Shown here piece after piece: positions 1 to 21,634 of a stretch of 64,000 nucleotides of DNA (position 1 is its first letter; the number at the start of each line of letters is the position of its first letter). The stretch covers positions 480,924 to 544,923 of the forward strand of contig JAAOMT010000514.1 in NCBI GenBank assembly GCA_016748015.1. The letters are read 5' to 3'. Position numbers and translations under genes: made by a program. The notes under the pieces were generated by a model that made no database searches, was not told the DNA's origin, and saw only the letters and a list, made by a program, of their open reading frames with translations. This stretch comes from Geosiphon pyriformis uo1. Its lineage: Eukaryota; Fungi; Glomeromycota.

Positions 1-900
1 AAAAATAATAAAGAAACAAACTTATAAAACAAAATACTGCTCTTTGTTTTGTTTGCTTATAGAATTGTAAATTATAATATAATAAGTTATAAGTTTTTTA
101 TCTGTTCTATGAAAAAATGGCAACTTTATTAATAAAAACTAATATTAAAACAATACTTTTTAAAAAAATTACAATAAAAAAGTACAAAGATATTTTGTAA
201 ATAAAATTTGATATAATTTTTAACTTATTAATACATACATAAATAATTGTCTATAAAAAAATAAAACAATTTCAAAAAACTTAAAAAAAAGAAAACATAC
301 AAATTTTTTTTTCAAGTATTAGTAACTTAGTTTTAGAATATTATTTAAACAAAAATAATGTTTATAGAAATAAGTTTTTTAGCCAGTAAAAAAACTATTT
401 ATAGTTAATAAAATTTTGAATAATAGTTTTTATATCTTATAAGATTAATATAAAATAATCTTTAATAATTAGTTTATACATAGTATACAACTTAAAAAAT
501 ATTACAAACAATTTGATTGATTATTTATTATAATAATATTAATCTAAAAAATCAGCAAAAATCAATTAGAAATAAATATATTATTTCTAAAACAAAAATA
601 TCTTTAATTAATATAAACAATTATTTTTTAAATCAAAACATTTAAAATGTTTTTTATATTTTTTATAAATATTAAACCAAAAATTATTTAGATATTACTT
701 TAATTATTAAAAAACTATTATCAAAAAAAATAACAATAAAATAAATAAATATATGCTTAAATACATAATAATAATTATTTTATCACTTTTTAATATACTT
801 AAAAAAATAATTAAAAAAATTTTTTTTATAGACAAAAACTTGTTTTATAAAAAACAATTAAAACTTTATAATTAACTTAATAAAATTATAAAAAACATAA
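1..900. repeat. Extremely AT-rich non-coding tract, probably terminally decayed transposon sequence
   Basis: Almost no G/C and no ORFs. Similar tracts elsewhere (21635-22143, 30235-32515) can be aligned by eye to TE families in this window. Confidence 0.45.
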
Positions 901-1070
901 AGTGGTTTCTGTTTATATAGGTGTTTAGTGTCGTTCTGATTGGTCCGAGTAGCTGGTCACGTGTAGAAAGTGCATGATTCACACCTAGTTTAGATCATTT
1001 ACATGATGTATAGTGCTAGGCAGTGTTTGGACTTTACTCGTTAAAATAAAAAAAAAGAAAAAAAAAAAGA
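901..1070 (+). mobile_element. Extreme 5'-truncated LINE (last codons of ORF2, 3' UTR and A-rich tail)
   Basis: Reads ...VVSVYIGV* (TAG 926-928), then the conserved LINE 3' UTR (gattggtccgagtagctggtc...ttggactttactcgtt) and an A-rich tail at 1043-1070. The same UTR ends the other LINEs. Confidence 0.85.
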
Positions 1071-1875
1071 ATAATATTATAATTAAAAATTATAGTTTTT
1101 ATTAATAATTATTGATTTAATTAATAATTTGATTATTAATTACTTTAAGTAATTATATAAGCACTAAATTTTTTAACTGTAGAAAAATATATATAAAATT
1201 AAAACAATAAAATAATATTTATATAGTTAATACTTTTTTTATCACTTATTTTTCTTTTCAAATTTTTTATTTTTAAGTATTTAAATATTTATAAATAAAA
1301 AATTACTTGTTAATATTTACATATCTTATCTTTTTTTTGATTTGTATTGTTAAAATTAATTTGAAAAACAATTGTTTTTGTAATTTATTAAATAAAAAAA
1401 TAATTAAAAAGCATAATAATATTTGTTATTAATTCTAAAAATTACGAAATAAGACATAAAATAATAATAATTGTATTGTTTTATTAATAATTATGAATTA
1501 TTTTCAGATTTTTAGATTTTTCAAAAAAAATTAAGTAATTCTAATTATATATATTAAATCTATAAATTTAATTCATTTTTTTGATTAAATTTTTTCTTTA
1601 ATTATTTTTATTTTTTTTAACTTTTTTTTGCTATTTATTAATTTATTATTCTAATTCATAATAATATTTAAAAAATTTTATTATTATTAAAGCCAAATAA
1701 TAATTATTTAAATATTAAAATTTAAATATAAGTAAATAATATATTTAAAAATTTTATTATTATTAAATAATTAATGAATGAAGTTTTTTAAAATATTATA
1801 ATAATAAATTAAATCAAATTTTTAATAACAATATATAAGTATTAAATTTAAAATGAGTTTTTCAACAATGCAAAT

Positions 1876-3408
1876 TTGTCTTCAACTCTTCCCTCAACAT
1901 CAAGTAGTGTTGGTTCTCTGAACGTTCTTGGCTCTAGCAGTTTTATGTCTGTATGTGATCATCTGTCTCAAGTTGGTATTAGTAGTTTATCTGTATATAC
2001 AGATGGGTCTTTAAGGAGTTTGGGCACAGTTGGCTGTAGAGCTGGAGCTGCTGTTTTTTTCGAGGACATTAATTTGGGTTTAGACATTAGAGTATCAGAT
2101 TTGATGTTGTTTACTTTGGCTAAAATGCAGACTATTGCATTGGCTTTAGAATGTGTTCCTTTGTTTGGTTCTGTTTGCTTGTTTTCAGATAGTCAATTTG
2201 TTTTGGATGCTTGCAAGTTGGAATTGGCTTTGGTGTGTCCCAATTTTCATAATCAGTATTGGGTTGAGTGTCAGCATATAGTTAATATTATTTGCAATAA
2301 AAATTTGAGTGTAAGTTGGCACAAGATAAAGGGTTATTCTGGTATCTTGGAAAATGAATATGCTGATTCATTTGCTGGTGATGTGTCTATTTCTAATTGG
2401 TTTTTTCTTTCTTATCTGAGTGAACATTTTTTGATGGCTGATGGCAGTATTATTTCTGGCAATTCTAAACATTTTGTTTGTAATGTTTATCATTCTGTCT
2501 GCTGTGTGCATTAGGAGATTGGTTCTGGCTTAAAATTTTTGTCTCATGGTTTGGTCTCTGAGATTGATTGGCACCATTCTTTGCTGGTGTGGCATCCTGA
2601 TTTACACATGGCCACTGGTTATACCAGCAAGGCCTCAGCTAATATGTGTACTTATTTTATAAAAGCTCTGCATCATTGGTTATCTGTGGCTATTCATAAG
2701 TGCCTCTATGATAAATGTTATTTCAGTATACTGTACTTGTATTGTGGTAAGGTAGAAGTATCAGATTATGTGTTTTCCTGTAGAGTTGATAAGCCTATTT
2801 GACATCAAATACTGAAATTCCATGTGAATTCTTGGAAGTTGCTTTCGGGTCTCTTCCATTCTTCTTCAGGTGTGCTCCAGTTGTTATCGATATGTGTTTC
2901 TGATTTTTCTTTGTTAATGGCTCTTTTTAAAGATTGTGTTTTTAATGGTTGGTTTTATGAGACTATTTTCATTTTCTGTGATTTCAAGATTGCCAGTCAT
3001 GAGGTTGTTGAGTTTGTGCACTCTCTTAGTCTTGCTTTTAGAAATGATGTCTAGTTGGTTCATGCTAAACATTAGGCATATATGGAGAAGAATGGCTTAA
3101 TTCTTTTTGATGGTTCAGTTCTCATATTAGTTTCTAATTTGGCTTTAGGGTTTTCTGCTGGTGTGGTTAAGATGCTTGGCATAGCTGAGACTTTTGGAGT
3201 ACATTTTGGATTTTACAGAGCTTGTTTGTTTTTTTCTGGGATAGATAATTCAGTTTCAGTTTGTATAGCTGCATAGTATTGTCTTGATCAGCCCAAGTAG
3301 CTGGTTGCATGTAGAAAAAGCATGATTCATACTTAGTATAGATCATTTCTTTGATGTATAAAACTAGGTGGTGTTTGGATCTTACTCGTTAAATAAATAA
3401 ATAAAAAA
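1876..3408 (+). mobile_element. 5'-truncated LINE remnant: RNase H, C-terminal Cys/His finger, 3' UTR and tail
   Basis: RNase H motifs VYTDGSL...AGAAVFF...LFSDSQ...WHKIKGYSG..ENEYAD. Four collinear same-frame ORF pieces are separated by point-mutation stops. UTR 3277-3393, then a (TAAA)n tail. Confidence 0.9.
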
Positions 3409-4222
3409 TTTGAAATAATTTTAACAAAATAAATATTACTTAAAAAACAAAAATATTTAATAATATTATTAAACAATTATAATATTTTTATTTATAAAAA
3501 ATTTATTATTATTATTATATAAATTAATATTATATAAATTACAATTATAATTTTTTTATTATGTAAATTTTTTATTAAACTTTTTATTAAAGCAACAAAA
3601 GCTTTAATCAAAATTTTAAAAAAAAACTTTTAAATTCTAAAAAACCAGCCAAAAACAAAAATGATATTTTTTTAATAACTAAAAACTGTTTTAATTTAAA
3701 AATATTAAAAAAAGCTTTTTTATAAATACTTTATTTGATTATTTTTAAAAATATTACTATAAAAAAAATAAATATTGTTTTATTTTACTCCTTATTTACT
3801 TATTTATATTATATTTTTTAAAAAATTAATATTATAATATTAATTATTATATTGTAATTTTATAAAAATTGAAGGTTCTTAACATGTTAAATATTAAAAT
3901 CATATTGAAATAAAAAAGTTAAAAAGCAAAATATTAATTTTTAAAGCCTAAAAATAAAAGAATTAACAACCATCCAAATTGTTTTTTTTTAAAACTTGTA
4001 TCTGTCAACCAACAATTTTGTTTATAATTAAAAAATAAAATAAAATGAAATAAAGACAAATTATTTGATTATATTTAATTTAAATATCTAATACATTCAA
4101 AAAAGCAAACATATATTCTGATTATCTGGCTTAGATTCGGATCGAAAGTCAAACTTACATTGTAGAACACCAAGGATAGCAGCCACACTTTAAATGGGTA
4201 ACCAAACTTCTAGTTTCGATTT

Positions 4223-7200
4223 TCATCCAAAACTTTGGAACTCCGTGTTTCGTCGATTTCCGGCTGTGAGTCGGTGGTCTCCACCGCCAATTGCAGCTCC
4301 ACACTCTGGGCAACGGCTTTGTTGCATAGCTCCGCCGCATTCTCCAATTGTATACTATTCAGAAAAAAGAATTAATAAATCACTCGATAAATGCAAAAAG
4401 GCCCTACCAAATACGAATTATAAAAGCAAATTTAACTTACAGGGTGTCCATTAGGACATTCAAACCAATGATCTGAATTGTAAGTTGATTTTTGTGATAA
4501 GAATGTATTGGGTTGATATGGATTATTGAGAATCTGATCTTACCTCCACCCCCCACTTCGGGTTTCATCGCGCGGAAAATATTCAACTTATCTTCTTTGG
4601 TCAAAATCTCGTTTTGAACCAGTAGCTCATTTACCTCTTCCAAAATTTTCTCAATTTTCTCGTTACACTGGGACTGGAAATAAATAACGTCCATTGTCGC
4701 CAATTTTTTTTTCAATATCTCTAAATCTTCCTTAATCTTCGGACAATGTTTCCGGATATCATTCCTTATTTTCTCTGTGAGGTTTCCACCTGGAGGGTTC
4801 CTTAATAAAAATCTTGCTTTGCGACATGCCATATCAGCTTTTTCTAGGGACGCTATAACAAACCTGCGTTCATGACGAGTTTTTTCAGCCGTTCTCAAAA
4901 TAGTGACCAGATGCGAATTTATTGTTTCGAAAAGATGCAAGCTGAAATCAAGCCATTTTTCCCAAAGTGGCTTTTCCAACGCTTTTTCTTCCGTCACATT
5001 TGCTCTTGTGGGGGTTTCAAATTGTTCTTTTTTCAACTCCGCAACAATCTGAGAAGTTTCCAGAAGCATCGCTTTTTGAACATTGATAATCTCGAGGAAA
5101 GCATCTAAATAAATCCCCTGATCAACCATGGGAGTTGGAATTCCAACTTGCTGAAGACTCTCAAAGTGGTATTTTTGGGAGTCTTTAATGGTTTCAATCG
5201 AAGTTAGGCCTAACTTATTGAAGGAATCCAACACCTCATCCAAATCTAATTCCGTTTTCCTGCGATACAAAGCCGAAACAGCCGCTTCATATGCTCGTTT
5301 ATGGGGCTAAATGTTGAGTTGAAGAATATACGAGTACGAGTTAAAATCCAAAAACTACCACTTCTCTATGTTAAGTAATAAATTACCGGATTTTTAGTAT
5401 CAGCAATAATCAGGGACAAATCATAATAGATAGTAGTCAGAAAAGTTATATGCTTTCTCCACAAATTTTCCTGAGCTCTTGGTATCCCCCAACTTTGTGT
5501 AACTTGCTCAAAACTATTAAAGGGCGTGACCTCAGAAATTCTGCTAGCGATTTTCTCATCAAACTCTGCGCGATATTCAACCTCCTTTTTGTCTTGACTT
5601 TGATAGTCCTTAGTTGATTTTTTGATCCCTTCAAGGAATTTCTCCCTTTTTTGCTCAATCGCTTGCGTAGCTATGCCGAAACTATAACTCAGTTTTTTCA
5701 TTTGCTGATCATATTTTTGCAAAAACTTCTTATTTTGGATATTCAGGGTATTCTTTTTGATTACCCGGCCATATCTGAAAAATAAGAAACTATTGTAAAT
5801 ATCTTTGAAATGACAATTTTCGATGAACTGCTCGATTTACCGGCGGGAATTAATTCTTGCCCGACAATTCGGGCATGTCTTTGGGGCCGAATTTTCAGCT
5901 GGAAGTTGTTTGATCCCCTTCCAGACCATAATGCCGTTTTCAAAAACACTCTCGTAATAGTCATTCAATTCCATAATCCCGTCCATTGATTCTGAAAGAA
6001 AAAGAATATAAATTTATTCTTGCATTTCGAGAGTAAGGTTTTGACATACCCATAGTGAAACAATGATCACAATCTAGCTTTATTAAGCGGTGTTCCTCCT
6101 TCCAATCGACTTCCTCGAACGTTGCCTGCATAATGACATCAACAACCTGTGATCTTATTTTTTCGGGAGCACAGATTGGACAATAATCTTTAGGAGGGCA
6201 ATTTTCCCCACAAACGCCTAAATTATGTTAATTCGAGTGGATAAATTATATGAAGTAGCGCATTCAAGGGTCTTGTAAAGGGTTAATTATTAAATTATCA
6301 TACCTGGACATTGATGTCCACACTCCAGAATTTTGGGACAACGTTGATCACAGGGTAATCGAGAACAAGGGGCACCACAACTTAACGGACAATTCCCTTG
6401 ATGTTCACAGTTCCAATTGCATTCTTCGGCACACGCGCTACATGGGACAGCACATTCTAATTTACAGCTTGAATGATAACAATTTACAGTACATGGTTTT
6501 TTGCAAGGTGGGCATGGGCTTCCTATATGACAAGGTTGTGAACATGAATGACCACAGAATAAACCTCGGCCACATATTTCTCGGCACTTTTGAGCGTGAT
6601 TGCTTCTTATGATTTGGCCATCACCATCAAGAGGCGGTCCCCCATTTGCTAGAATCGATCGATTTTTACAGTTTTCGCATTCAGATTGACAATTATGACC
6701 GCATTCCAAAAGCTTTCCGCATTTCTGAGAGCATCTCGACTTTTTGACGTCTTCGAAACTTTATAAAGTTTTCAATATAAGTAAACAGACAAAGAATAGT
6801 TGGCTGAAAATACTTCAGATACCGACATACCAATGCATATTTTTTTCATGTTCACAAGTCGGAAGCTTTCGATTGACCATCTTATTGCATTTAATCTTAG
6901 CCCGATCTCTTGCTTGGTAACAAAATGGCTTTGTATAGGTATGGCCACATAATAATTCGATGTCTTCAACTTGAAATTTGCACATTCCACAATCTTCACC
7001 GCATTGTTTTTTGCATGGATGTTGACACACCGGATGAAGTCGGGGGCATGGTTTGTGACAAAAAACTCCAACATGTTCCCTATGTCAAATGTATGAAAAT
7101 CAGACCAGTGCCGTGATGAATTGATTGAAAGAAGAGTTTTTATATGAATACCTATCATCAAAATGACATTTATAAGGACATATATGTCCACATTTGGGCA

Positions 7201-10200
7201 AAATTTCTTGACAAGGTTCCATGCATCCACCATCTGGCGAAACCTCTGCAAAGTGCTGCGGATTGGAGATTTCATTAACATACTGGGGATGCCGTTCGCA
7301 TAAAATTGGGAAAGCTGGACCTATTTGGCCACGTTGACGAAGAATATCGATCACTTTATCCCACATTTGAGATTTTTTTTGAAAGAGTTTAGCGTCTCCA
7401 AGAAGATACATTCCATGCTTGGCACGTGATAAGAGAACATTAGTTCGATTATCAGATTTTAAAAAACCAATACTGCCACGCTCATCGCCTTGAGCCGAGT
7501 TGCGAACAAGCGATATTATCACGATTTTAGCCTCCTCTCCTTGAAAATTATCAACAGTTCTTAAGATGACTTGTTTTTGCAAGGAGCTATAGAATTAATA
7601 CAGAATATTATCTTGTTTTTCAAATAAACTGATGAATGCTAAATTTCAGGATTCTAAATAGAATCGGCTTACCGTCTCTCAGCAATTGGGTTTATATGTG
7701 TAACCTCCGGTGAAGTTTGATTAGCATTCGACGCCGAATCGTCTTGGTTCAATTCATCATCAATATTTTCCTGATCACGTTCATCAATGACTACGGTAAC
7801 GTGGGAATTTTTCAGTGCATCCCTTATTTGAATAAGTTGACCCAAATATGGCGTCAGGATCGCAATATCTTTGGGATCGTTATATCCGTTACGGACAAAA
7901 TATTTGACCATTTCAACTACCATTGCTGCTTCGTATGCGTTAGAGTGTGATTGAAGGGCCAATTGATTGCCCCCGGGTTTATCTTGAGAATGTCCATGCT
8001 CTATAAAAAATACATTATGTTGAGCACCATGAACCTTTGGATATTTTTTGGTTACGTCATCGTCTTCCAAATCTCGATACAAAGTATTTCTTATCAAATC
8101 AGAAATTTCAGGACGCATCCGACGCTAGAAAATAGAATCAAAGAATATGATTCTAAAGAATAACAGAAAAAATAGATCTTGCTTAGAAATAATTCTTTTA
8201 TTACCTGAGTTGTGAGTTGAGATAATGGAAGTTTAATCGCATTGTCTCCTCTTACCACTATTTGAGTTGTAAATATTAGACAGGAATAAAATCCACATTC
8301 TACACTGGATTTTTAAGTCGATAAACTTACGCCTTTCGAATAGAGATTTGTCCAACTCGTAATTCTTTCCTCTGTAAAATTCAATGTAGGTAAACCGAAT
8401 TTGTAAGCGAAAAAAATCGACCCTGAAACCAATCTAAAATAAAATTAACAAGATTCAAGACTTACATTGGGGAATCCATAGAGAGACTGTAAGTGGATAA
8501 ATGAGGCCTTAGCTGCTTATGATCTCCTATTAATATCATGTGTTGCGTGGCTTTGCTTAACGAGGTCAAGATATGGGCTTCCAAGACTTCACCAGCTTCT
8601 TCACAAATAATTACACGAGGTCCAATCGAACAAACTAAAGATTGAAATTTAGCGGCGCCGGTGGTGGTCATCCCAATAACCTATACATTTGGAATCAAAG
8701 AGTTTTTTAACAAGTTTAATATGATCTATTCTTATCAATTTTCCCTTATTACCTGTGAATTTTGAAGTATCGGTCGTCGACCCTCATTATAAATCTCATC
8801 CATCTCTTTAGATTTTTCTTCGTAACGGTTTTGTAAGTCTTTGAGCTCTTCGATACTCTCCATTTGAACCTCACGACGCCAATGGTTATGAAGATTAATG
8901 CGTTCTTTTTGCGACATTTTCCAAATATCGGTATCATTAAGCAATTCATCTAATGACCGATTTGTTTTGGGGACTTGCCAGTTTTGCAAGAAAGATGATG
9001 TATACGGTGTATCGAAATCAGAATTTAAAATCGTTTCCTGATCTTGATATATTCCTGACGTTAGGTCTTCTCCAATCTCCTCTTGCACTTCGTCATCTTC
9101 CTCTTTCGCTTTCGTCTTCCCCTTCATCTTCCTTTTTTCTCGAGCTGGAATTGTCTCGGAAGAGTTGAGAGGGTTAAACTTGTTTGGAGAAGCCACCTGG
9201 ATTTGCGGGAGTGATTGCGATAACTTTTGCAATTGTTTTGCACGCTTTATATCTTTAAATGAATTTTAACATGGATTAGTTTTTTTATTTTGTTGATTCC
9301 AACATTCAAGGTTTAACAGATGTTTGCCATCAACTAATGACCAGTAAACCAAATTTAAGGCATACCGTTCCCATGAACCCACTGTTCAAAAAGATTCCTA
9401 GAATTGACATATTTCCAATCATCATCATCATTAGTTTCAATCGAATCGGCGACTTGATCTTGAAATTTGAAATAAAAATCCGTGTAATTGGCATATAGCA
9501 AGGGTTGCACCTCTTTCCATGATAGCCAACGCCGGCGCAGCCGATCTGTAATAGATTTGGTCTTTTCTACAATGTTTTCCAGCGCTGAATGTATCAGGTG
9601 CAACATGTATCTTTCATTGGGTTTTTTGGGACGACTGCGGGAAATTTCCTCCAGACAATATTCCTTGATAATATCACTTTTCGTCCGACTTCCCAAACGT
9701 ACGATATTCTTAATACCAATTTCAGGAGAAAGAAGATCTTCTAGGAATTGGTCGAGCGCATGATTCGTATATGTAATGCAAAGAATTGGTCCAATATTCA
9801 ATTTACACAGGACACGCATTAACTGTACTCCAATATAAGATTTGCCAGTTCCTGGAGGACCTAGATAAAAATTGTGTATAAATAAGGTATTAAGATAAAA
9901 TCTAATGCAAGAATGAGTTTGAGGCAGAAAATTTGAATGGACTATACCTTCAATTAATGCGATCTCACGCGATAACGCGTTCAACATAGCCTCAGATTGG
10001 GTACGATCAACACGCCCAGAAGCTATTAATTTTTCAAGGCAGCTTTTCCGCGACTCTTCATCCTGTACATTCAACAAAATTTCACCGATACCTTTATTTA
10101 TATCAGATGGGTGGCTAAGATCGAATCTGTGACCAGGCGCCCTTGTATAAATGGGGGTAGCAATGACTGCAGACGTATCCGAAGGAAATTCGGGGGCCAA

Positions 10201-12298
10201 ATATCTATCTAATGGTAGGGTTGACGGAATAATTTTTTGAAGTGTTTTGAGGACATGATAATACGCCTCCAAGTAAACTCCAGTCGATTCAACCATGTAG
10301 TTAGAGTATCCATAATTAGTTTCGTTCAAATGTTGCATCGATTCAATAGCAATAGGATATATTGAAGGATCCATAAATTTGATATCAATTTTAGCGATTT
10401 CAACATGTTTCGCTAACTCCTCTTCATTGCGATCACTAACCGTTCTTTAAATAAAGTAAAGATTAACATAAGGCATGAAAAAATGAACTTCCAGTACAAG
10501 CTTACCCGAAAAAAAGTCTATGAGTCCTATTTGAATTGTCAGAATTCTGATCGTGAATTTTTAAATTAGACCAAAGAACGCAAATCAAGCCCCCATTAAT
10601 CAATTTCTTAGACTTCTTCCAAAATTCTTGACGTTCCCTGGCAGTACGAGCATTCCGAATGTTAGGAGGGGTGAATAAAACTCGACATGAAAATCCACGA
10701 CGCTTGTCGATAATAATATCCTCAAAACGAACATTGGAATAAACATTGAGATCACCATTATCAATTCCATTGTCAAATTTAAACCTCCCTTTCTCAAACA
10801 TTCCTCCTTGTGTTTTACGATCAGCACTTGGAATAGACAAATAATGTACAAAATTGGATACCCCAATTCTTATCGGATTGATCATGTCTTCTCTAAAGAG
10901 ACGAAATTGTGAATCAATTAAACGGGCTGGTCCGTTGGGGAGAAAATGTGGTGCACCTGGAATACTTGAGGGAAGAAACGGTTCTCGATCGTTTGTCAAA
11001 ATTTCTTTTTCTGTAGGTAGGATGGAGATCTTACCAATCTCGGAAAAGTCATTATCATGACGTGGGCCTTCTGTAGATAACTCACCTTAAGAAATATTTA
11101 AAAATCATCCCAATAAAGAATCTGGTTTTAATGATGATTCATTTGAAAAAAGGTTTCGATCAAAATTATTGTACGTACCAGGTGGATCATAGTCACTGTT
11201 CAAACGCTCTAACATTGCTTTATATTTCGTTCCAGGATTATCTTTAACTTCGGATTTTGGTTCCGAAAGTCTTTGCTTCCCGCTGGCCAAAACTTTATTC
11301 AGTTTCTCAAATTCGGTATCCAATATATCAAAACAATAAATGCTTTCAGAGGTAGCAGCAAGAGAATCCGAAAATTCAGCTTTCTCTATTCCATCCTGCC
11401 ATTTCTTCCTTAAAGTCTCCAAATGTTTCACTGTTACATGAATCGAATCGTTCAGAGATGCCTCCTTAATTATATTTAAGAGCTCATTCAAAAGCCTGAC
11501 AATACTCAAAAATGGCTGAAAAAAAGATATGGGTATAAATGAATCTGGGTCATATCGCAAGATTGCATCAGAGCTAAGCCGTTGATCATCCAAACTTTTA
11601 CGTTGGATTAGAGTTTCTAAAACGCTTAATACTTGATTTTTTAGAAAGGAGTCAATATTTGGATATAAAACAGAATAAATGGCATTCTTTCGGCCTTCCA
11701 AATTACAGCCAGTGATCGCTGTACGCGTGAGTAAAGCAAGGAACGGAATAATCACACGCTGAAAAGAGAGTAAATTTGGTTCCTGCCCAGCATCTGCCGA
11801 GACACGAAACCCTATTATTTCTCTTAATCGATCCAAACCTTCGCCATACCCAAGCTTAGCTACAAGGTCTTCGACGTCTTCCTTTTTATCATCAGCCGTT
11901 AGAAGGCAAGAATTAACGAAGTGTCGAACTTGCCGCTGGGTCGTTAAAGGTTTATGGATAAGCCTTTTCCATGCTCCGTCTAACTGGTCTGCTTGTAATA
12001 GAAATACAATGGCTTCACTGCCCTCGAAAGAAAGAGCAGCAGAATTAAAGTTTTCCATCAAGCGATCGCGCGATTTTTTGGCAGCTTCTGAAGGAGGGAG
12101 TGCTGCTTGAAGAGCTTTAGCATGGTCATAAAAATGATGCTGTGGACGGTCGCCTCGTGACCGTCCCCCTCTTTGAGGGGTTCCTTGAGGGCGAGAGCCA
12201 CTGCCAGGAGCGTTGTCACCACGTCCCCGACCACGTGAGTTCCATTCTCTTGGGGAATCATCCCGGCGATTCCTTCCACGATAAGCTGGGTTCGACAT
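4223..12298 (-). CDS. ZNFX1: ZNFX1/NFX1-type zinc finger-containing SF1 (Upf1-like) helicase with NF-X1 fingers and C-terminal RZ finger; about 18 exons
   Basis: ATG at 12298 ([14 protein letters not shown]-rich N-terminus). Helicase motifs: Walker [22 protein letters not shown], Walker [43 protein letters not shown]. Repeated CGH.C...C fingers. The last two exons (4472-4441, 4354-4223) splice to [37 protein letters not shown]; stop at 4225-4223. GT-AG introns link the ORF-track pieces. Confidence 0.92.
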
Positions 12299-13461
12299 TG
12301 GTTTTAAAAAAAAAACCACGGTAGTTATGGGTTTATTGTCAAAAAGTTGCGGCTTTATATAACCCTGATTTCAGGCTATGATAAGACTTTAAACTTTAGA
12401 TGTATATACGATCAAATGATGATGATTAATGGTCTTATGGTAAAATCAATATTCGAAAAAAGTGGGATAAAAAAATCAGAAAATAGTCGCAATGGGGTTT
12501 GTCATTATGATATCTCATTTTTACTTTTCATATCATTATTTAAATACGTTTATGCACAAGTTTTTAGTTTCAGCAATAATTAAAAATTCAACTTACACGT
12601 AGTTGTTTTTTTTTTTTTTCAAAAAATTGTTGTAATATATTTTCGTAATAATTTATCAAATTATCATTTTTTAAGAAACATTTTTATTATTAATACCATA
12701 AAAAAATATTATAAATTATTGTCATTAAATTATAATTATTTTTTATTAAGATTATAATTTTTTATTTTAAGTTGTACTTATTAAATTTTAAACTTTTAAA
12801 AATAATATAAAACGTGTTACAAAAAAAATCATACATAGAGAACATTTAATATGAAGCTGTTTATGCTGCCATCAAAATTGCTGAAATTAATTATATAAGA
12901 AACATTTGAATTGTTTTTTTTCAGTTTTTAATTTTTTAGTTTTATTCTTTTTGCTTCAAATTTTAACATAGTCTTTCGAATTATAAAGTTTTTTTCGCAA
13001 TATATTCTTTTTTAATAATGCCAAAAATTTGATTTGATATTTCTTATTTTTGGATTTTATATCTAGAAAACAAGCCACCAATTTTTTATTCTTAAAATGT
13101 TATTTTTTCTAATATTAATCATAAAAAACATTTCTGATCTCTCGATTTTTGGAGCTGTTTGGTAAAAATAAAATAGATAACTTATGTAACTTTATAACTA
13201 TTTATTGTTTGGACAATATTATTATTTTAATTTGATATTGCCAATATTACCTTAATTTATTTAAAACAAAATAAGTCAAATTTTTATTTAAATTTCAATT
13301 TATAATAATAATAATGGATAACATATTTTTGTACAAAAATGCTTCATTAATGTATTTTGTGTTGTTGATCTAATTAATTAATATAAAAGTTGTAACATGT
13401 GATTATCTGGGATATCAGTGATTATCTCTAATTTTTCAGCTTGGGAAACATATTTTCTTCA
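12299..13461. promoter_or_regulatory. Divergent (bidirectional) intergenic region between the ZNFX1-like and AMT1-like genes
   Basis: Start codons at 12298 (-) and 13462 (+) face away from each other across 1163 bp with an AT-rich core. No specific promoter motif identified. Confidence 0.55.
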
Positions 13462-14919
13462 ATGTCACAAACGCCTGATGATTCTGCGGTTCAGCCTTCC
13501 GAGCTGAAAGGCGAGACCGAGCATGAAGAGCTTGAAGAGCTTGACGTTTTTGGTTGTTCTGTGGAGCCTAGTGTTGTCATTGAAGCCAGGTCCAACGTAA
13601 TTGCCACAATTCTGCCTCCTAATTTAGAGGTGGCGGCACAGATTCGAAAACTGCAAAATCGTGAAACAGAACTTCGGCTTCGTATTGATGAGCTATTAGA
13701 TGAGATAACAGCTTTGGAGGCAATCACTGGTACAGAAAACCAGGGGGCTATAGGGAGTATTATAAGTGGCTGTAGCTCAAACGCACAAGCATCTAGCAGC
13801 GCGCCACAGGTAGAAGAGAACGGTAATGGGCTAACGCAGGCAAGAACGATCATTTACGGCACTTTGTAGAATTTCTTGATTGCTCAATGAATTGAATTCG
13901 ATCAGAGATTTGCTGGGAAGAGTTTAAGGCACCTGAGTGGTGTATACCTATAAAGGCTAATGTCTTGACATTTGATTGGGACGTAAGTAAAAAGCATTTT
14001 AAAGGCTACTTTTTTATTTCTCGTTCCAAAATTTGAGCAGAAAAGGAATATAAACTGATCCAAAAGGAACTCGCACGAGAATGTCAATTTGATGTTATAC
14101 TGATGGATCCCCCGTGGCAATTAGCCACTCATGCTCCTACACGTGGTGTAAGTATTTCCTTAAATATTTATTACAATCCTTCTGCAAATGAATCTCAAAA
14201 TATTCCTAACAAAAGGTAGCCATTGCGTATCAACAACTTCCCGATGTATGCATCGAAGAACTCCCAATTGCTAAATTGCAACAAAATGGTTTTCTTTTCA
14301 TTTGGGTAATCAATAACAAGTACGCTAAAGCGTTTGAGATGATGAAAAAATGGGGATATACGTGAGCATATCTTCTTAAAATTATTTTGGTTTTTACTGG
14401 CAAGCTTGTTATCTTCATTATGATCTTTTCTTTTCCATGGTAGGTATGTAGATGATATAACTTGGGTTAAACAAACCGTGAATAGAAGAATGGCAAAAGG
14501 TCATGGCTTTTATTTGCAACATGCTAAAGAGACATGTTTGGTAGGGAAAAAGGTATGTTATATTTTCCTCTTAAATTTTTTTTGACATGTGAATTTGGTA
14601 AGCAAAAATTTTGTTTTCCCTACTTTTTTTTCCAAAGGGAGATGATCCTCCTGGAACTAGATATTCCATTTCTTCTGATGTCATTTTTTCTGAGAGAAGG
14701 GGACAAAGTCAAAAACCTGAGGAGTTATATGAAATGATCGAAGAACTAGTGCCAGATGGTATATAAAGCCCAAACTATTGAAACTGTTTATTAACTTGGG
14801 AATTTGGTTCAATCAAAAATCATATCCCTTGTTTTTCTTACTTAGGAAAATATCTTGAAATCTTTGGACGAAAGAATAATTTAAGAGATTATTGGGTGAC
14901 AATTGGAAACGAGTTATGA
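13462..14919 (+). CDS. AMT1: MT-A70 family N6-adenine methyltransferase, AMT1/MTA1 clade (DNA 6mA at ApT); 7 exons
   Basis: Exons 13462-13822, 13906-13982, 14067-14147, 14216-14361, 14444-14552, 14638-14758, 14846-14919. All introns are GT-AG and frame-consistent; the first donor is the least certain. Spliced product includes FDVILMDPPWQLATHAPTRGVAIAYQQL, GFLFIWVINNKY, VDDITWVKQTVNRRMAKGHGFYLQHAKETCLVGKKG, SERRGQSQKPEELY and YLEIFGRKNNLRDYWVTIGNEL*. DPPW is at 14106-14117. RGVAIAY and AKGHGFYLQHAKE are characteristic of ciliate MTA1/AMT1. Confidence 0.92.
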
Positions 14920-15828
14920 ATAGTAAAATATCGGAAAAATTCAAAATTGAATTTATTCTGTCCAGATTCTATCAACGGAGCATCCATTAATCATTTCATT
15001 AAGACATAATTAATCTAAGTCGTGGGTTTGCTCCCGAACACAAGAATAATGTAAGGTAAGCTTTTTGACGTTACTAAAAATTAGCTGATAGTTTGAACCA
15101 TGATATGATATCAAATTCATTATAATGCCGCTCTGCAAGAAATTAAAGATTATCAAAAAAGAGCACATCTAAATTCCCAATACCTTCAGCGAGATGCATA
15201 TATTTTCTTATGGTACTATTCATACTTTAAGATTATAATGATAAAGTTGCTGACATTCATGATATTGACCCTAGATGTTAATCATTTGTATTTTCCTGAG
15301 AGTGGTGCAAGATACTAGATGTGGGTCCTGTTGATTAGGGCTGCGACCATTGAGGCAATGACAATCGCATCGAATAAAGGTCACTATTGTTTTTTGGGGG
15401 GTCCCTTCATCGTGTAGTATATATTTAAACTTATCAATTTTAACAGTAAAATGTCATTGATCAAAACCGAATCTGTATAAAAAATTGAACCCCCCGAAAG
15501 AACATGTCAAAAAGTCCGAAAATTAAAAATACCAACAGTTTTTAGCAAATAACCTAGAAATTTACCTCTACCAAATTCATCTATTTCGCTTTTTTTCTTT
15601 TATTCTACTACCTAAAAATCTCTTAGTTCCCAATACCCATTTTCCCCTCAATGGACCTATAGTCAAACCGACCTCCCCAGAGTCGAAACCTTTCTCTCTG
15701 TTTTGTATTTCTTTTTGAATATTTTACATTGCTTATTTTAGTACCCCTCTCTCACAATCTATAAACCTACTCAACTCATATTCAGCGATCATTTTGACTA
15801 AAAATTTTAAAACAGCCGTGCAAGACAG

Positions 15829-18800
15829 ATGTCAAACTTTTCTGCCACGTCGGCAACTTATCCTCACGAGGAAAAAAGCGAGGACAACGACGAGGAAGAT
15901 GAAGACCATCCGAAGGTAGTAGACACTGACCCAACCGGTCGGTTTGAACGGTTCGAAGAGTCTTTGGGTAAGGGTGCCTATAAAGAGGTTTTCAAAGCGT
16001 TTGACCAGGAAGAAGGGGTGGAGGTAGCCTGGTGTCAGCTACGCCTGAATTTCTCAAAGAAAAAGGACGCTGAAAAGATACAACGTGAGATTGAGATCTT
16101 ACAATCGTTACGTTGTGAAAACATTATCAATTTTTATGCGTCATGGTTAAAAAAGGGTCCCGATGGAAAAGAACGAGTTTTCTTTGTGACGGAACTTATG
16201 ACATCCGGGACGCTCAAACAATACATTCGAAAGACTAAAGGACAGTTAAAGCCTAAACTTTTAAAATCTTGGGCACGGCAAATCCTCAAGGGTCTCAACT
16301 ATTTGCACACTTCCGTCCCACCCGTAATTCATCGGGACCTAAAATGTGATAATATTTTTATAAATGGAAATAACGGTCAAGCAAAGATCGGTGATCTCGG
16401 TTTGGCGATCATTAAGAATAAAGAACACGCCTCGTCGGTACTTGGAACGGTAGTATTCCTCGAAAACCTTTTTCTCGTTATCTTTCTTCATTTATATTTG
16501 TATTAAAATAAAATCTAACAATTCGAATCATTTCATTAAACATAAATTCCTGGCTCTGAATGAATACTCCTGGAATTTGATTTATCCTGTTGTTTTTCGT
16601 TTGCTGTTTGTGTTCTTGTGCTATTATGCCTTCCAACCATATATCTATTTTAAAACGATTTGATGGGTTTCAATTTTCTGTTGTTTCACTTCGCATTTAA
16701 ACTTTTCTTCGTTTTTCGCATCCAATACAATAGCCCGAATTCATGGCGCCAGAGTTATACGAGGAAAAGTACAATGAAAAAGTGGATATCTATGCATTTG
16801 GAATGTGCGTGTTAGAACTCGTTACAAAGGAATATCCATACACCGAATGTACCAATCAAGCCCAAATTTATCGCAAAGTCACCACCGGGATAAAGCCTCA
16901 AGCCTTGCAAAAAGTGAAAGATGCTGCAACCTTGGAATTTATTGAACTTTGCCTAAAATATAATCCAGATGAAAGACCATCAGCTGCACAGTTATTACAG
17001 CATGAGTTTCTAAAAGAAGATTGTGTTATAGATCAGAATACAAGTAGCTCTTCGAAAGAACGTGATGTTTCTCCTAGACCAGTTACTCCAGGATCGCCAA
17101 AGTCACCCGGATTACAGGGAACTTCAATTTTAATCCAATCTGGCAGTCTAGCAAATGTCACAAGTTCAAGCAACACAATAATTGATAATAAGTTTAATGA
17201 GGAGAATCAAGGCAGTACATCCAAGCCTAATAGCATTCTTTCAGTATCAAAAAACTTGTTACCACCACCAGTGACAACTACTACAAAAACAATTGACGCT
17301 GAAAGCAAAACGTATCATGTAAGCTCCTCCAACTCAACGCAGCTGTCTCGGCATGGTTACAAGGAAACTTCAACACCGCAGCAACTGGGTCTAAATAGTT
17401 CCTCGGCTGAAAAAATCCCAAAACCGTCTCCAATCGAATGTAACATTAGGATTTATCAGCCAAGTGAAAAGGACAAGCAATCTAAAAAATCTAAACAAGC
17501 GAAGAATGAGGTTCAGCTTGCAATGACCATAATCAGCCCTGGTCGCACTGATGTTGAAATTAAGTTTCCCTTTAATTTGGAAGATGATACACCCGAAGAT
17601 GTGGTATCAGAAATGGTCAGGGAGCAGATTTTAGTCCAGGAAGGACACGATTTGGCAAAGAAAAACATCGAAGACATTGTTAATTTGATCCTCTCGGGAA
17701 AACATCCTTTGCAACCAAGAACACCGGACCAGTTTGAACCTGAACAATCTAAATCTAGATCTTCTTCTCGACAAGAAAAATCTCATCCCGAGCAGCAAAT
17801 TTACGAAAATTCACATGAAACCGATAATGAGCTCGCACATCAGGCTAATCAAGGAGCCAGGTTAAATGAAGATTTTGACGCAGGGTTTCAGTCTGAAATT
17901 TCATCATCTTATGATAGTATGGATGTGCCTCGATCTGTTTTTCACAAAGATCCATTATCTTCTGCCGAAAGTCTGACAAGGGCCTCATCAGCACGAACAT
18001 CTTGGGAACGAGATGCAGATAATGAAGTTAGGCTAGTTCTTCATAATTCACGGCACACCAATGATTCTGTGACAGTTAATACTAACATAATGCCCACTCC
18101 TGAATATGGAAAAACTCCACCAATGGGTGCTATTGGAATTGCTCCGAATAATGTATATCCTCCACGCTCTCGATCAGTTTCAATGTCAGGTATGGTCAAT
18201 CAGACTCATAGTCCTCCATCTTCTCGTTCAGGCACAACTACACCTTTTCAATGGCCTTTGGATGATATACTACCGGTTGATGATGCACAAAATTTCAATA
18301 TGGTCTTAAATCCACGATCACCCACTCAGCCTTCATATTCACGTCCATCCTCGGTAGCTTCAGATTCTGCAACACTATATCATCCTCAATTCTCACATCC
18401 CCATCCCATTAAAACAAATCAAAATCCTTCTCAATCACATTATGCCGCAACACCTGATACTCAATATACTTCTGACGCTCCCTATGTACCCGCATCTCCA
18501 CGAACAAACTATACTCGAAGTAATAGCTTTTCCACTCCGCACTCTCCTGGTACCTCTCCTTTAAAGTTGCAAGATACTCAGCGTCGAATAACCAACCCTG
18601 GATTGCCCTCCTCGCCAATACAGCCGGATATTCCGATTAACTCGATTAATGGCTATTCTGGATATTCGAACAACTCGGAACGGATACGCAGATCCTCTAT
18701 ATCTTCAACTACCTCACATTCATCTGCACATTCTGCTATCCCTGAGACCGGATCAGAACCAATGGCTGGAAACCGATCTCAGATATTTCACCATACAAAT

Positions 18801-20522
18801 ATGTCGCAACAACAACAACTTTCAAATATGTTGCAGCATTCACAGCATATGCAACAAGAAGAAATTGTGATGAATCATGATGTAGGGGCAGGTTTGGGAA
18901 TACAGACCGAACAAGGATATCTTCCCGGATATCGACCCGGGGACTCGATCCCTACTATGAGAGGATATGAAATAGGTGTTTCTAGTAATGCTAGTTCGAC
19001 GATTCTATCCCCAGGTGATAATTATGGCCTACAAGACTCGCAACAGCGTCACAATAATCTTTTTCCTCGTTCGACGCCTATCACAGAAAATGCAATTATG
19101 TATCAAGACTCGGAGCGGGGGGGAATGCATTATAGCCATCCTCATCAGCATCACGAGTTCGGTCCCTCGAGCACTGAGAGATTTCCAGAAGATGAAGACA
19201 CAAGTGACGATGATGAAGCAGTCACACTAGCACTGAAAGAAAAGCATCGACTTGAAACAGCCGAATTGCATCAAAAACACGCACAAGAATGGGTGCAATT
19301 AATGAACGAAAGAAAAATGAAGTATAAACACCATCATCACAATCAATCAAAAAGCGGCAACACAAACGTGGCCAAATCACCTGGTAGCTCGCCAAAGATA
19401 AATCGACCTCCCACAACAGATCCTTCCGCCCGACAAAATGGGGTTTCCTCCTTAAATTCAACTCCAGCTCTAGGACCACAAACGATGGTAAGCGACCATT
19501 ATGGTAATATTCCAATGACCTATTCAATGATACATGCATCCCAATTATCGGTGTCTTCAATAAATCCGAATTCCTCAGCCCCGAAAACGGCAATAGCTTC
19601 CAATAATCCTGCTGGGATAAATGGAGGTCAAATTCCAGTATCATTGGTCCAATATAATGTCGCCTCAATGTCACAGGCATCCTCTGTTCCAGGCGGTGGT
19701 TCATCTAAACCCTCTATTCCAATAAAAATCCAATCATCAGCCACTACCACTACCTTCAACACGCATTCATCTATACCTAATACAATATTGCCCTTTTCCA
19801 CAGCCATTCAATCAACGCAATCCTCCTCTTCAACATCATCTTCTATATCATTACCTTCATCCATGACTACCATTCCTTCGGCGAGCGCTCCAACATCTTC
19901 TCATTCCATTAATACATCAGCATCTGCTCCAACTTCAGGAACTCCCAACACACCAAAAATGAAGCCGCAACCAGGTATTGCCCCCAGCACAATAAGATCT
20001 TTGCCTGATGAACTTAACGCCATGACTGAGCTTCAAATCACTGAACTTCAAAAGCTTGCACAAAAAGTTAATGGACAAGCAAAACAGAGCGGCAGTTTGG
20101 CGAATGGAACTACAAATCCAGCTGTTTCAAAAGTGCAAGCTGGGCGTGAGTCGCCAGCAGATGGGACAAGTCGACCAATTTTGCTTTCACAGTCCCTCCC
20201 CCACCAACAACAATTTCACGCGAGTTCTATGGCACAATTGAGTCTTTACGAAATGGAGAAACAACAGAGACAACTTTCAAATCATGACTTGACAACAAAA
20301 TCTTCTGCCCTTCCCAACCCTTTATATCCCAACGTTATTCATAATGCCACTGGGGGATTGGGTTTGAACGAGGTTACCTCTCCTTTTATGCCGGGAAATA
20401 ATGGATATTTTGGATCGCATCAATCCAACGTGTCGCTTGATTTATTAGCAAGTTTCGGAGACTCATTAGGACCCACATTGCCAAGCAAAAAGCATCAAAA
20501 TGAACAAGATTTATTGGGGTGA
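15829..20522 (+). CDS. WNK: WNK-family Ser/Thr kinase (~1469 aa, 2 exons) with a long disordered C-terminus
   Basis: Exons 15829-16449 and 16734-20522 join to give VLGT|[14 protein letters not shown] hallmarks: GKGAYKEV with Lys in subdomain I, VAWC replacing the usual beta3 Lys, [14 protein letters not shown], and DLG instead of DFG. Also a PF2/CCT-like segment [20 protein letters not shown] and an S/P/Q/H-rich tail. Confidence 0.93.
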
Positions 20523-21634
20523 AGCAAAAAACGTTTCACTTGATATTTTTTGATCAGAAAAGACTTTATGGGTATTTGCTTTTTGTGTTCACTTTAGCAT
20601 GATCTGTGTGTGAAATTACAGTCCTTTTTTATGAATATTTATTCACACAATTTCATAGCTAAATAATCATTTCTCTTAAGAACTTTTTTTATTGTATTTT
20701 CTCAAAAATTGGGTTTGGGTCACATTGTGCGTGCTCGTAACTTTATCCCTTTTTCTTTTGTAAATTTTTTAGATTATGTTTTGTTTTCCCTTGCTTTTTT
20801 TAATATTTCAATTTTTGAAATTATTTCGCTTTATTAACCGCTTCAGCTCTTTTTGGCTTTCCTTACCCAACAAAGCAGAAAGATAAAATTTGGCGGAGAC
20901 ATTGAAGGCAGAGTGCCGCCTAAAACAGCTTTGTGTTTCGTGTTTAGCAATTTTATAACCTTTTTTTTTCCAGTGATCTGCCACTATATTTTTCTGTGGT
21001 AACCAAACGAGAGACGAAGCCTGTACTTATTTATTTCGGTGGTGGGCAAATTCTTTAACATTGCACCCGCGGGAAATCCAATCCAACAAATCAAAAAAAA
21101 GTTTGTTTCAGTTGTTTGTTTCGCCTCATTATCATCAAGATGGACGATTCATGGCGATAATGATGACGACGAACCGACGCATGTAATAATATTTCTTCAT
21201 GAATAAATAATCATAGAGGCATTTTTAACAAAATTGTCCAACCGAGTGAGATCAAGTTTGTTTTTACTTGTCATTTTTCAACTATTTGTGTTAATAATTA
21301 ATGTTAAAGGTTCGCGTGTTGTAGAGTGGAAAGAAACTGTGCCTTTACTGCGCTCGGTGAGTTTAATTTGATGCAGGATGATATGTTGAGAATTATCGTA
21401 GTTTTTAAGTTTCTTTGCTTAGAATTTTTCTCATTAAATTCAAGTATAATATTCAATTAATATATTAAAATAATTTTTCAATTAATATATTAAATATATT
21501 GTAACGAATTTTTTTGTATTTGAGAATTATTATTAATTATTGTTTTATTTTTTATACCAATAATTAACAAATTTTATTTTTATACATTTGTATTTAATAT
21601 TTGAATTTTTATTTTTAAAAAATATATAACATAT

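What the first reader, a model, noticed from the sequence alone, without database searches (positions are those of the whole stretch)
13462..14919. Hidden 7-exon AMT1/MTA1-type DNA 6mA methyltransferase
Seen: short exons invisible to the ORF track splice into an intact MT-A70 domain with DPPW, preceded by an acidic/coiled-coil N-terminus. Established: RGVAIAY and AKGHGFYLQHAKE mark the AMT1/MTA1 clade, which writes symmetric 6mA at ApT near active gene starts in ciliates and early-diverging fungi, unlike the RNA m6A writer METTL3/Ime4. Inference: this organism has gene-associated 6mApT clusters alongside a separate repeat-directed cytosine system. From recollection (to be verified), some arbuscular mycorrhizal lineages have lost AMT1, so an intact copy would be informative.
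Basis: partly seen in the sequence, partly recalled or inferred. Interest (0 to 1): 0.72.

Follow-up and report, generated by a model that had tools for sequence, protein, structure and literature searches.

The report
Known fungal DNA adenine methyltransferase gene
This is an intact, spliced, already catalogued copy of the AMT1/Mta1 gene in the fungus Geosiphon pyriformis, whose enzyme likely marks DNA adenines near active gene starts as in related fungi; it is ordinary, apart from a first intron that is also kept or cut at a second site in some assembled transcripts.

Summary
Seven exons (13462-14919, +) splice to a 322-aa protein identical to KAG9293588.1 of Geosiphon pyriformis. Spliced contigs show all six junctions: introns 2-6 in two studies, intron 1 in one. 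The protein is AMT1/Mta1: 251 bits to Tetrahymena MTA1 against 121 to METTL3, with 20 of 21 catalytic and DNA-contact residues identical. It is not hidden or new. A 2025 supplement already lists this accession as Mta1, beside Geosiphon Mta9. The premise that AM fungi lost AMT1 finds no support: all 8 Glomeromycotina in that table have it. CpG is depleted in the flanking retroelements (0.19-0.23 of expected) but not in the gene island (0.91), which fits repeat 5mC. 6mA itself was not measured. Two leftovers: intron 1 also appears retained or cut at a GC donor, both giving helix-only truncations; and AMT1 sits beside METTL3 in Paraglomus. The scan's index held no look-alike protein.

The parts
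13462..13822 (+). Exon 1: ATG, acidic disordered N-terminus, long amphipathic helix, linker (aa 1-120)
   Evidence: covered by spliced contigs from 13463/13466
13624..13725 (+). Predicted helix aa 55-88; likely the counterpart of the MTA1 Helical domain that binds p1 (inferred)
   Evidence: pLDDT 79-96 over aa 51-90; hydrophobic at aa 61, 64, 71, 75, 78, 82, 85 in 41-42 of 42 fungal rows; PMC9174199 passages
13823..13905 (+). Intron 1 (83 nt, GT..AG, phase 1); three forms seen: spliced, retained (in-frame TAG 13867-13869, 135 aa), or cut from a GC donor at 13840
   Evidence: A+T 0.60 against 0.68-0.79 in 19 other confirmed introns
13840..13905 (+). Alternative GC..AG intron (66 nt); shifts the frame, stop TAA 13951-13953, 141 aa
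   Evidence: joint 13836>13903 with 3 letters of slack in one X3 contig; shifted by 3 it reads GC..AG
13906..13982 (+). Exon 2 (aa 121-146)
14067..14147 (+). Exon 3 (aa 147-173): catalytic DPPW at 14106-14117 and R172 (= MTA1 R221)
14216..14361 (+). Exon 4 (aa 174-222), begins VAIAY
   Evidence: Pfam MT-A70 E 8e-7
14444..14552 (+). Exon 5 (aa 222-258): substrate-binding loop K231-Q247 with H242 (= MTA1 H291)
14638..14758 (+). Exon 6 (aa 259-299): gate loop 2, R278, Q281, S282, K284
14846..14919 (+). Exon 7 (aa 299-322) and stop TGA
14920..15147 (+). 3' untranslated sequence covered by the spliced contigs (the true end cannot be read from contigs)
   Evidence: contigs of X2 and X3 reach 15133 and 15147

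Best explanation
This gene is the intact, spliced AMT1/Mta1 gene of Geosiphon pyriformis, and its protein likely works with Mta9 and a Myb-like P1 to methylate adenines on both strands of ApT sites just downstream of active gene starts. Shown here: the gene structure, its splicing, the clade, and conservation of the catalytic and DNA-contact residues. Inferred from Tetrahymena, Mucor and Rhizopus work: DPPW and SAM transfer the methyl group to a flipped adenine, H242 and R172 wedge into the duplex, and helix 55-88 binds P1. Also inferred: 6mA marks gene islands such as 4.2-21 kb while 5mCpG marks the retroelement flanks, as in Rhizophagus irregularis, probably at a low overall 6mA level.
For: The spliced product is identical to KAG9293588.1, listed under Mta1 in Lax 2025's supplement; the same table lists Geosiphon Mta9, Mettl3 and Mettl14 as separate proteins. 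PDB phmmer scores are MTA1 251 bits, METTL3 121, METTL14 56-60, MTA9 23-35 and the METTL4-type chain 7cv6 22. A Paraglomus METTL3 control reverses the order, METTL3 404 against MTA1 98. In a 50-row tree the query pairs with Ambispora (100/94) inside Glomeromycotina (98/94) and fungal AMT1 (99/91), apart from METTL3 by a 100/99 branch. Foldseek ranks 1-12 are all MTA1 complexes. Of 21 MTA1 residues named in PMC12485025, 20 are identical and K286 is R237, read by hand from the alignment. In Mucor, mta1 deletion removes all symmetric 6mA and DPPW is required. R. irregularis has symmetric ApT 6mA in genes together with high 5mC. CpG observed/expected is 0.91 in the gene island and 0.19-0.23 in the flanks.
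Against: No 6mA was measured in this organism, and no paper listed held the word Geosiphon. [quoted passage not shown] P1 and P2 could not be looked for because no genome is held. The productive intron 1 junction rests on one contig of one run with 29 letters on its short side, and the other spliced run keeps intron 1. The tree held no named METTL4, MTA9 or METTL14 rows. The AU test (p 4.6e-5) also forced two unnamed METTL3-like rows out of the METTL3 group, which inflates its gap.
Confidence: 0.9

Rival explanations
1. Same enzyme, but its output is tuned at intron 1. 6mA laid near the gene's own 5' end would favour retention or the GC donor, giving transcripts that are degraded or that make a 135-141 aa helix-only protein able to tie up P1: a negative feedback loop.
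For: Three intron 1 forms occur among contigs of X3, and the retained form is X2's only contig, while X2 splices the 19 other introns listed for this gene and its two neighbours. Both unproductive forms keep helix 55-88 and lose the catalytic domain. Intron 1 is the least AT-rich of 20 introns examined. In Paramecium bursaria, retained introns carry more 6mA and AMT1 knock-down lowers retention. Tetrahymena AMT1 regulates its own gene, though positively (abstract).
Against: Contigs give no isoform ratios, and the joint table was cut (11 rows not shown), so other retained introns may exist. A Glomus-like transcript contig splices intron 1 but keeps intron 3 (L003), so single-intron retention can be ordinary incomplete processing. 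A weak donor (GTAATG) and a poor pyrimidine tract explain it without regulation. No conservation of the unproductive forms was shown.
Confidence: 0.07
2. The gene is a conserved but nearly idle AMT1: intact, weakly spliced, and writing only trace symmetric 6mA, as in Mucor lusitanicus, with 5mC doing most of the epigenetic work.
For: Low 6mA in Glomeromycota; few symmetric sites in Mucor despite a working Mta1; unproductive intron 1 forms.
Against: In the one AM fungus whose methylome I read about, 68-73% of 6mA is symmetric ApT and tied to expressed genes. The domain is 80% identical to Ambispora gerdemannii over 93% of its length, with all key residues kept. This rival differs from the best reading in amount, not in mechanism.
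Confidence: 0.15
3. It is an mRNA m6A writer (METTL3/Ime4) or a METTL4-type enzyme, as the automatic UniRef label 'mRNA m(6)A methyltransferase' on many of its relatives suggests.
For: Shared MT-A70 fold and DPPW; METTL3 chains follow closely in Foldseek (TM about 0.5); automatic database names.
Against: The score to MTA1 is twice that to METTL3. The tree separates them. Geosiphon has its own Mettl3, KAG9293620.1. None of 120 close homologues carries the GHWLNH motif of the METTL3 proteins. Tetrahymena MTA1c shows weak or no activity on RNA.
Confidence: 0.02

Closest known systems
Geosiphon pyriformis Mta1, KAG9293588.1 (Lax et al. 2025, PMC12019607, supplementary file 5)
   Same: Identical 322-aa protein, already classed as Mta1.
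   Different: No difference in sequence. Its splicing and the methylome were not described in the passages and sheets I read.
Mta1 of Rhizopus microsporus and Mucor lusitanicus (MTA1c: Mta1, Mta9, P1)
   Same: Same clade (Mucorales rows in the 99/91 fungal AMT1 group), same motifs and N-terminal helix.
   Different: Function was shown genetically there and is only inferred here. The Geosiphon protein has a longer acidic N-terminus and linker (322 aa against 243-250 aa for the Mucor and Rhizopus rows).
Tetrahymena thermophila AMT1/MTA1 (PDB 7YI8, 7F4L, 9U9E)
   Same: 251 bits; 20 of 21 catalytic and DNA-contact residues identical; top Foldseek hits.
   Different: The four side chains named as p2 contacts are not kept (H198>E, Q195>gap, D174>E, R358>K, read by hand), in line with Mucor lacking p2.
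Rhizophagus irregularis AMT1 and its dual 6mA/5mC methylome (PMC8298701, PMC8647823)
   Same: 73% identical orthologue; the same genes-versus-repeats cytosine pattern is implied by CpG loss.
   Different: Methylation was measured there; here only the mutational trace of 5mC is seen.
METTL3/Ime4 RNA m6A writer
   Same: MT-A70 fold and DPPW.
   Different: Separate clade, half the score, different loop motif; a separate gene in this species.

Membership tests
AMT1/MTA1 (MT-A70 DNA 6mA methyltransferase) | MT-A70 domain with intact catalytic DPPW | tested here: met
   DPPW aa 160-163; Pfam PF05063
AMT1/MTA1 (MT-A70 DNA 6mA methyltransferase) | Groups with AMT1 and not with METTL3 in phylogeny | tested here: met
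   (50 rows; references are proteins on Lax 2025's Mta1 list and named METTL3s). METTL4, MTA9 and METTL14 were compared by PDB score only.
AMT1/MTA1 (MT-A70 DNA 6mA methyltransferase) | Base-flipping and DNA-contact residues of gate loops and substrate-binding loop (R221, K280, K289, H291, F293, R328, K334 and others) | tested here: met
   20 of 21 identical, K286>R
AMT1/MTA1 (MT-A70 DNA 6mA methyltransferase) | N-terminal Helical domain, absent from MTA9 and METTL3 according to PMC9174199 | tested here: met
   Predicted helix 55-88 with conserved hydrophobic spacing; Foldseek alignments to MTA1 run 263-284 columns against about 190 for METTL3
AMT1/MTA1 (MT-A70 DNA 6mA methyltransferase) | Partner Mta9 (AMT6/7) encoded in the genome | not testable with these tools
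   No genome held; listed in print as KAG9285337.1, sequence not checked by me
AMT1/MTA1 (MT-A70 DNA 6mA methyltransferase) | Partner P1 (and sometimes P2) encoded in the genome | not testable with these tools
   No genome held and no P1 query sequence in hand; an image-only supplement of PMC12019607 could not be read
AMT1/MTA1 (MT-A70 DNA 6mA methyltransferase) | Symmetric 6mA at ApT downstream of active gene starts | not testable with these tools
   Needs raw long-read signal; only contigs were served
METTL3/Ime4 | GHWLNH-type loop and grouping with METTL3 | tested here: not met
   Motif seen in METTL3 rows, absent here and in 0 of 120 homologues; tree and scores
METTL4/DAMT-1 | Closest to METTL4 structures | tested here: not met
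   21.6 bits to 7cv6_B against 251 to MTA1; that 7cv6 is METTL4 is recalled, the call names it 'Methyltransferase-like protein 2'
MTA9/AMT6/7 (inactive partner) | Degenerate catalytic motif and closest to MTA9 | tested here: not met
   DPPW intact; 23-35 bits to MTA9 chains

The most novel reading that the evidence does not exclude
Geosiphon throttles its DNA 6mA writer through its own first intron: AMT1-laid 6mA near the gene start drives retention or a GC donor, and the resulting helix-only AMT1 acts as a decoy for P1. This would be a splicing-based negative feedback that helps explain the low 6mA of mycorrhizal fungi.
Probability: 0.07. Interest if true: 0.6.

Novelty: already known. Interest (0 to 1): 0.2.

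Why it matters
As an enzyme assignment it adds little: the protein is annotated and already classed as Mta1. It does confirm by transcript evidence that Geosiphon, the cyanobacteria-hosting member of the group (its partner is recalled; the table says 'lichenized'), expresses a full AMT1, and that its genome shows the genes-versus-repeats split in CpG decay known from Rhizophagus. That makes it a reasonable species in which to measure 6mA. The intron 1 pattern would matter only if it proved regulated, since what sets 6mA levels across early-diverging fungi is open.

Tried and rejected
Genome-wide partner search: no genome is held. Run search: no RNA holder is on record, but X2 and X3 contigs skip GT-AG introns exactly in three genes while X1 runs through them, so I treat them as cDNA. 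In one search, X1 laid nothing, which the tool marks as a possible filter loss. Contig depths for the three intron 1 forms in X3 (25.6, 21.2, 34.6) were not used as ratios. ApT, VATB and SATS counts near gene starts showed nothing usable, and PMC12695648 reports no ApT depletion with 6mA. AMT1 loss in AM fungi was rejected. Acaulospora and Racocetra were not among the listed rows, but only 120 of 670 hits were shown, so this is no evidence of loss. Two Funneliformis models lacking DPPW (P0015, P0340) look like exon-skipping annotation errors, because P0341 and genomic locus L022 have it. Intronisation of old coding sequence as the origin of intron 1 was set aside: exon 1 ends at the same residues as the Ambispora models and L022 has the same acceptor. 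No donor matches the U12 consensus as I recall it. The kinase fused to an Entrophospora METTL3 model is not the window's WNK-type kinase (32% over 94 aa). The near accession numbers of Mta1 and Mettl3 in R. diaphanus are an artefact: different contigs. The first tree (128 rows) lacked named outgroups and was superseded. No complex prediction was run.

Full report
Observation. Seven exons between 13462 and 14919 on the + strand join to 969 nt and translate to 322 residues with no internal stop; the six introns are GT..AG and 68-87 nt. A search with exon 4 alone returned as best hit a 322-aa protein of Geosiphon pyriformis, which is identical to my splice and carries accession KAG9293588.1. The gene lies in a 17-kb island between a ZNFX1-like helicase, head to head, and a WNK-type kinase, with decayed retroelements on both sides (the WNK and retroelement labels rest on my reading of the ORFs).

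Splicing. Four runs were listed, none on record as RNA. X2 and X3 nevertheless hold contigs that skip GT-AG introns exactly in all three genes, while X1 is contiguous, so they behave as cDNA. Introns 2-6 are skipped in both, which are different studies. Intron 1 differs. X3 has the productive junction in one contig (29 letters on the short side), a second joint that reads as a GC-AG intron 13840-13905, and an unspliced contig 13810-13932. X2's single 1307-nt contig keeps intron 1. Retention stops at TAG 13867 after 135 aa; the GC form shifts frame and stops after 141 aa. Contig depths cannot give ratios.

Identity. Against solved structures the protein scores 251 bits on Tetrahymena MTA1, 121 on METTL3, 56-60 on METTL14, 23-35 on MTA9 and 22 on chain 7cv6. 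A Paraglomus METTL3 run the same way gives 404 on METTL3 and 98 on MTA1. A maximum-likelihood tree of 50 domains (26 named, 24 unnamed representatives, picked by me from the stored proteins) puts the query with Ambispora inside a fungal AMT1 clade and away from METTL3. That tree had no named METTL4, MTA9 or METTL14 rows, and its AU test (p 4.6e-5) is inflated because two unnamed METTL3-like rows were held outside the constrained group. The AlphaFold model (mean pLDDT 77.6, 68-row alignment) has MTA1 complexes at Foldseek ranks 1-12. Mapping by hand through the alignment, 20 of the 21 MTA1 residues that PMC12485025 names for catalysis and DNA contact are identical; K286 is arginine, as in 62 of 68 aligned homologues. 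The 'coiled-coil' is helix 55-88, hydrophobic at seven positions in 41-42 of 42 fungal rows; in Tetrahymena the matching Helical domain binds p1 like a leucine zipper.

How it likely works. Shown: an expressed, intact AMT1. Inferred from orthologues: with Mta9 and P1 it flips and methylates the adenine of hemimethylated ApT near active gene starts. Mucor mta1 or p1 deletion removes all symmetric 6mA and DPPW is needed; the complex is essential in Rhizopus microsporus; across 18 unicellular eukaryotes robust 6mA occurs only with AMT1. The amount in Geosiphon is unknown and may be low. That is the trace of 5mCpG deamination rather than of CpA-type RIP (my inference), and it matches measured TE methylation in R. 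irregularis. An earlier scan note on this genome also speaks of decayed CG in retroelements; I took it as a lead only.

What is known. Lax et al. 2025 list KAG9293588.1 under Mta1, and Geosiphon Mta9, Mettl3 and Mettl14 in other columns; 8 of 8 Glomeromycotina in that table have Mta1 and Mta9. Chaturvedi et al. 2021 found AMT1 in all AMF genomes analysed; the losses they report are in Dikarya and Catenaria. My searches named orthologues in Geosiphon, Ambispora, Paraglomus, Rhizophagus, Glomus, Funneliformis, Entrophospora, Gigaspora, Scutellospora, Cetraspora and, as a 100-aa partial cluster member, Dentiscutata; Diversispora comes from the table. A genomic locus of a Funneliformis-like fungus shows the same six intron positions (L022). 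The premise that made the finding look informative therefore fails.

Leftovers. First, intron 1 is the odd one out: A+T 0.60 against 0.68-0.79 in 19 other confirmed introns of the island, 4 CpGs against 0-1 in this gene's other introns, a weak donor. Both unproductive forms would keep the P1-binding helix and lose the enzyme. 6mA promotes intron retention in Paramecium bursaria, so feedback is conceivable. Against it, a Glomus-like contig keeps intron 3 instead (L003), and weak splicing explains the data. I give it 7%. No title or abstract start listed described this for a fungal AMT1; I read only the listings plus the papers named below. Second, AMT1 and METTL3 are neighbours in Paraglomus: consecutive gene numbers on a 58,921-bp contig in P. 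brasilianum and tail to tail, about 120 bp between stops, in locus L016. Accessions are 32 apart in Geosiphon and 48 apart in Diversispora epigaea, which hints at one scaffold but was not verified; in R. irregularis the longest contigs differ (5.30 and 4.94 Mb). No listed paper held the word Paraglomus. Shared ancestry of gene order is the simplest reading.

Papers seen: passages of PMC8298701, PMC11258239, PMC12485025, PMC13297926, PMC12695648, PMC9174199, PMC10173741, PMC8647823; passages and supplementary file 5, parts 3-5, of PMC12019607, whose image-only file 7 could not be read, and whose figures may bear on P1/P2; abstract and outline only of PMC11760949. Others were seen as search listings.

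Verdict. A real, correctly read, already known gene. Interest 0.2; the intron 1 feedback reading would deserve 0.6 if true.

Noticed in passing
L016:1-1120; P0330 and P0290 (Paraglomus brasilianum 3627_t and 3626_t): The DNA 6mA writer AMT1 and the RNA m6A writer METTL3 are adjacent genes, tail to tail with about 120 bp between stops, in Paraglomus; accession numbers hint at looser linkage in Geosiphon and Diversispora, and none in Rhizophagus irregularis.
   Followed up: partly
window 4200-21000 versus 1-4100 and 22000-64000: Sharp two-compartment pattern: CpG at 0.91 of expected in the gene island and 0.19-0.23 in the retroelement flanks, with TpG/CpA gain.
   Followed up: yes
window about 4200-12295, minus strand: Large ZNFX1-like helicase gene, head to head with AMT1, with 13 listed introns confirmed by spliced contigs.
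   Followed up: partly
window 11250-12190: A second, diverged copy of the 5' part of the helicase gene exists elsewhere: contigs with many substitutions and small gaps, in the genomic run too.
   Followed up: no
window 15829-20522, plus strand: Protein kinase gene, WNK-like by my reading, with one confirmed 284-nt intron and a long low-complexity tail.
   Followed up: no
P0004 vs P0005 (Rhizophagus), P0024 vs P0344 (Gigaspora): Database models of AMT1 in two other genera disagree on the intron 1 donor by about 17-20 codons in frame; this may be gene-prediction noise or a second donor.
   Followed up: partly
P0181, P0184, P0243: Unnamed AMT1-clade representatives with APPL in place of DPPW yet intact RGV and GHGxYLQH motifs: possibly inactive AMT1 paralogues.
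   Followed up: no
P0342, P0343, P0348: Entrophospora candida has two AMT1 models (288 and 309 aa) in separate clusters.
   Followed up: no
L003:455-580: A Glomus-like AMT1 transcript contig that keeps intron 3 while splicing the others.
   Followed up: partly
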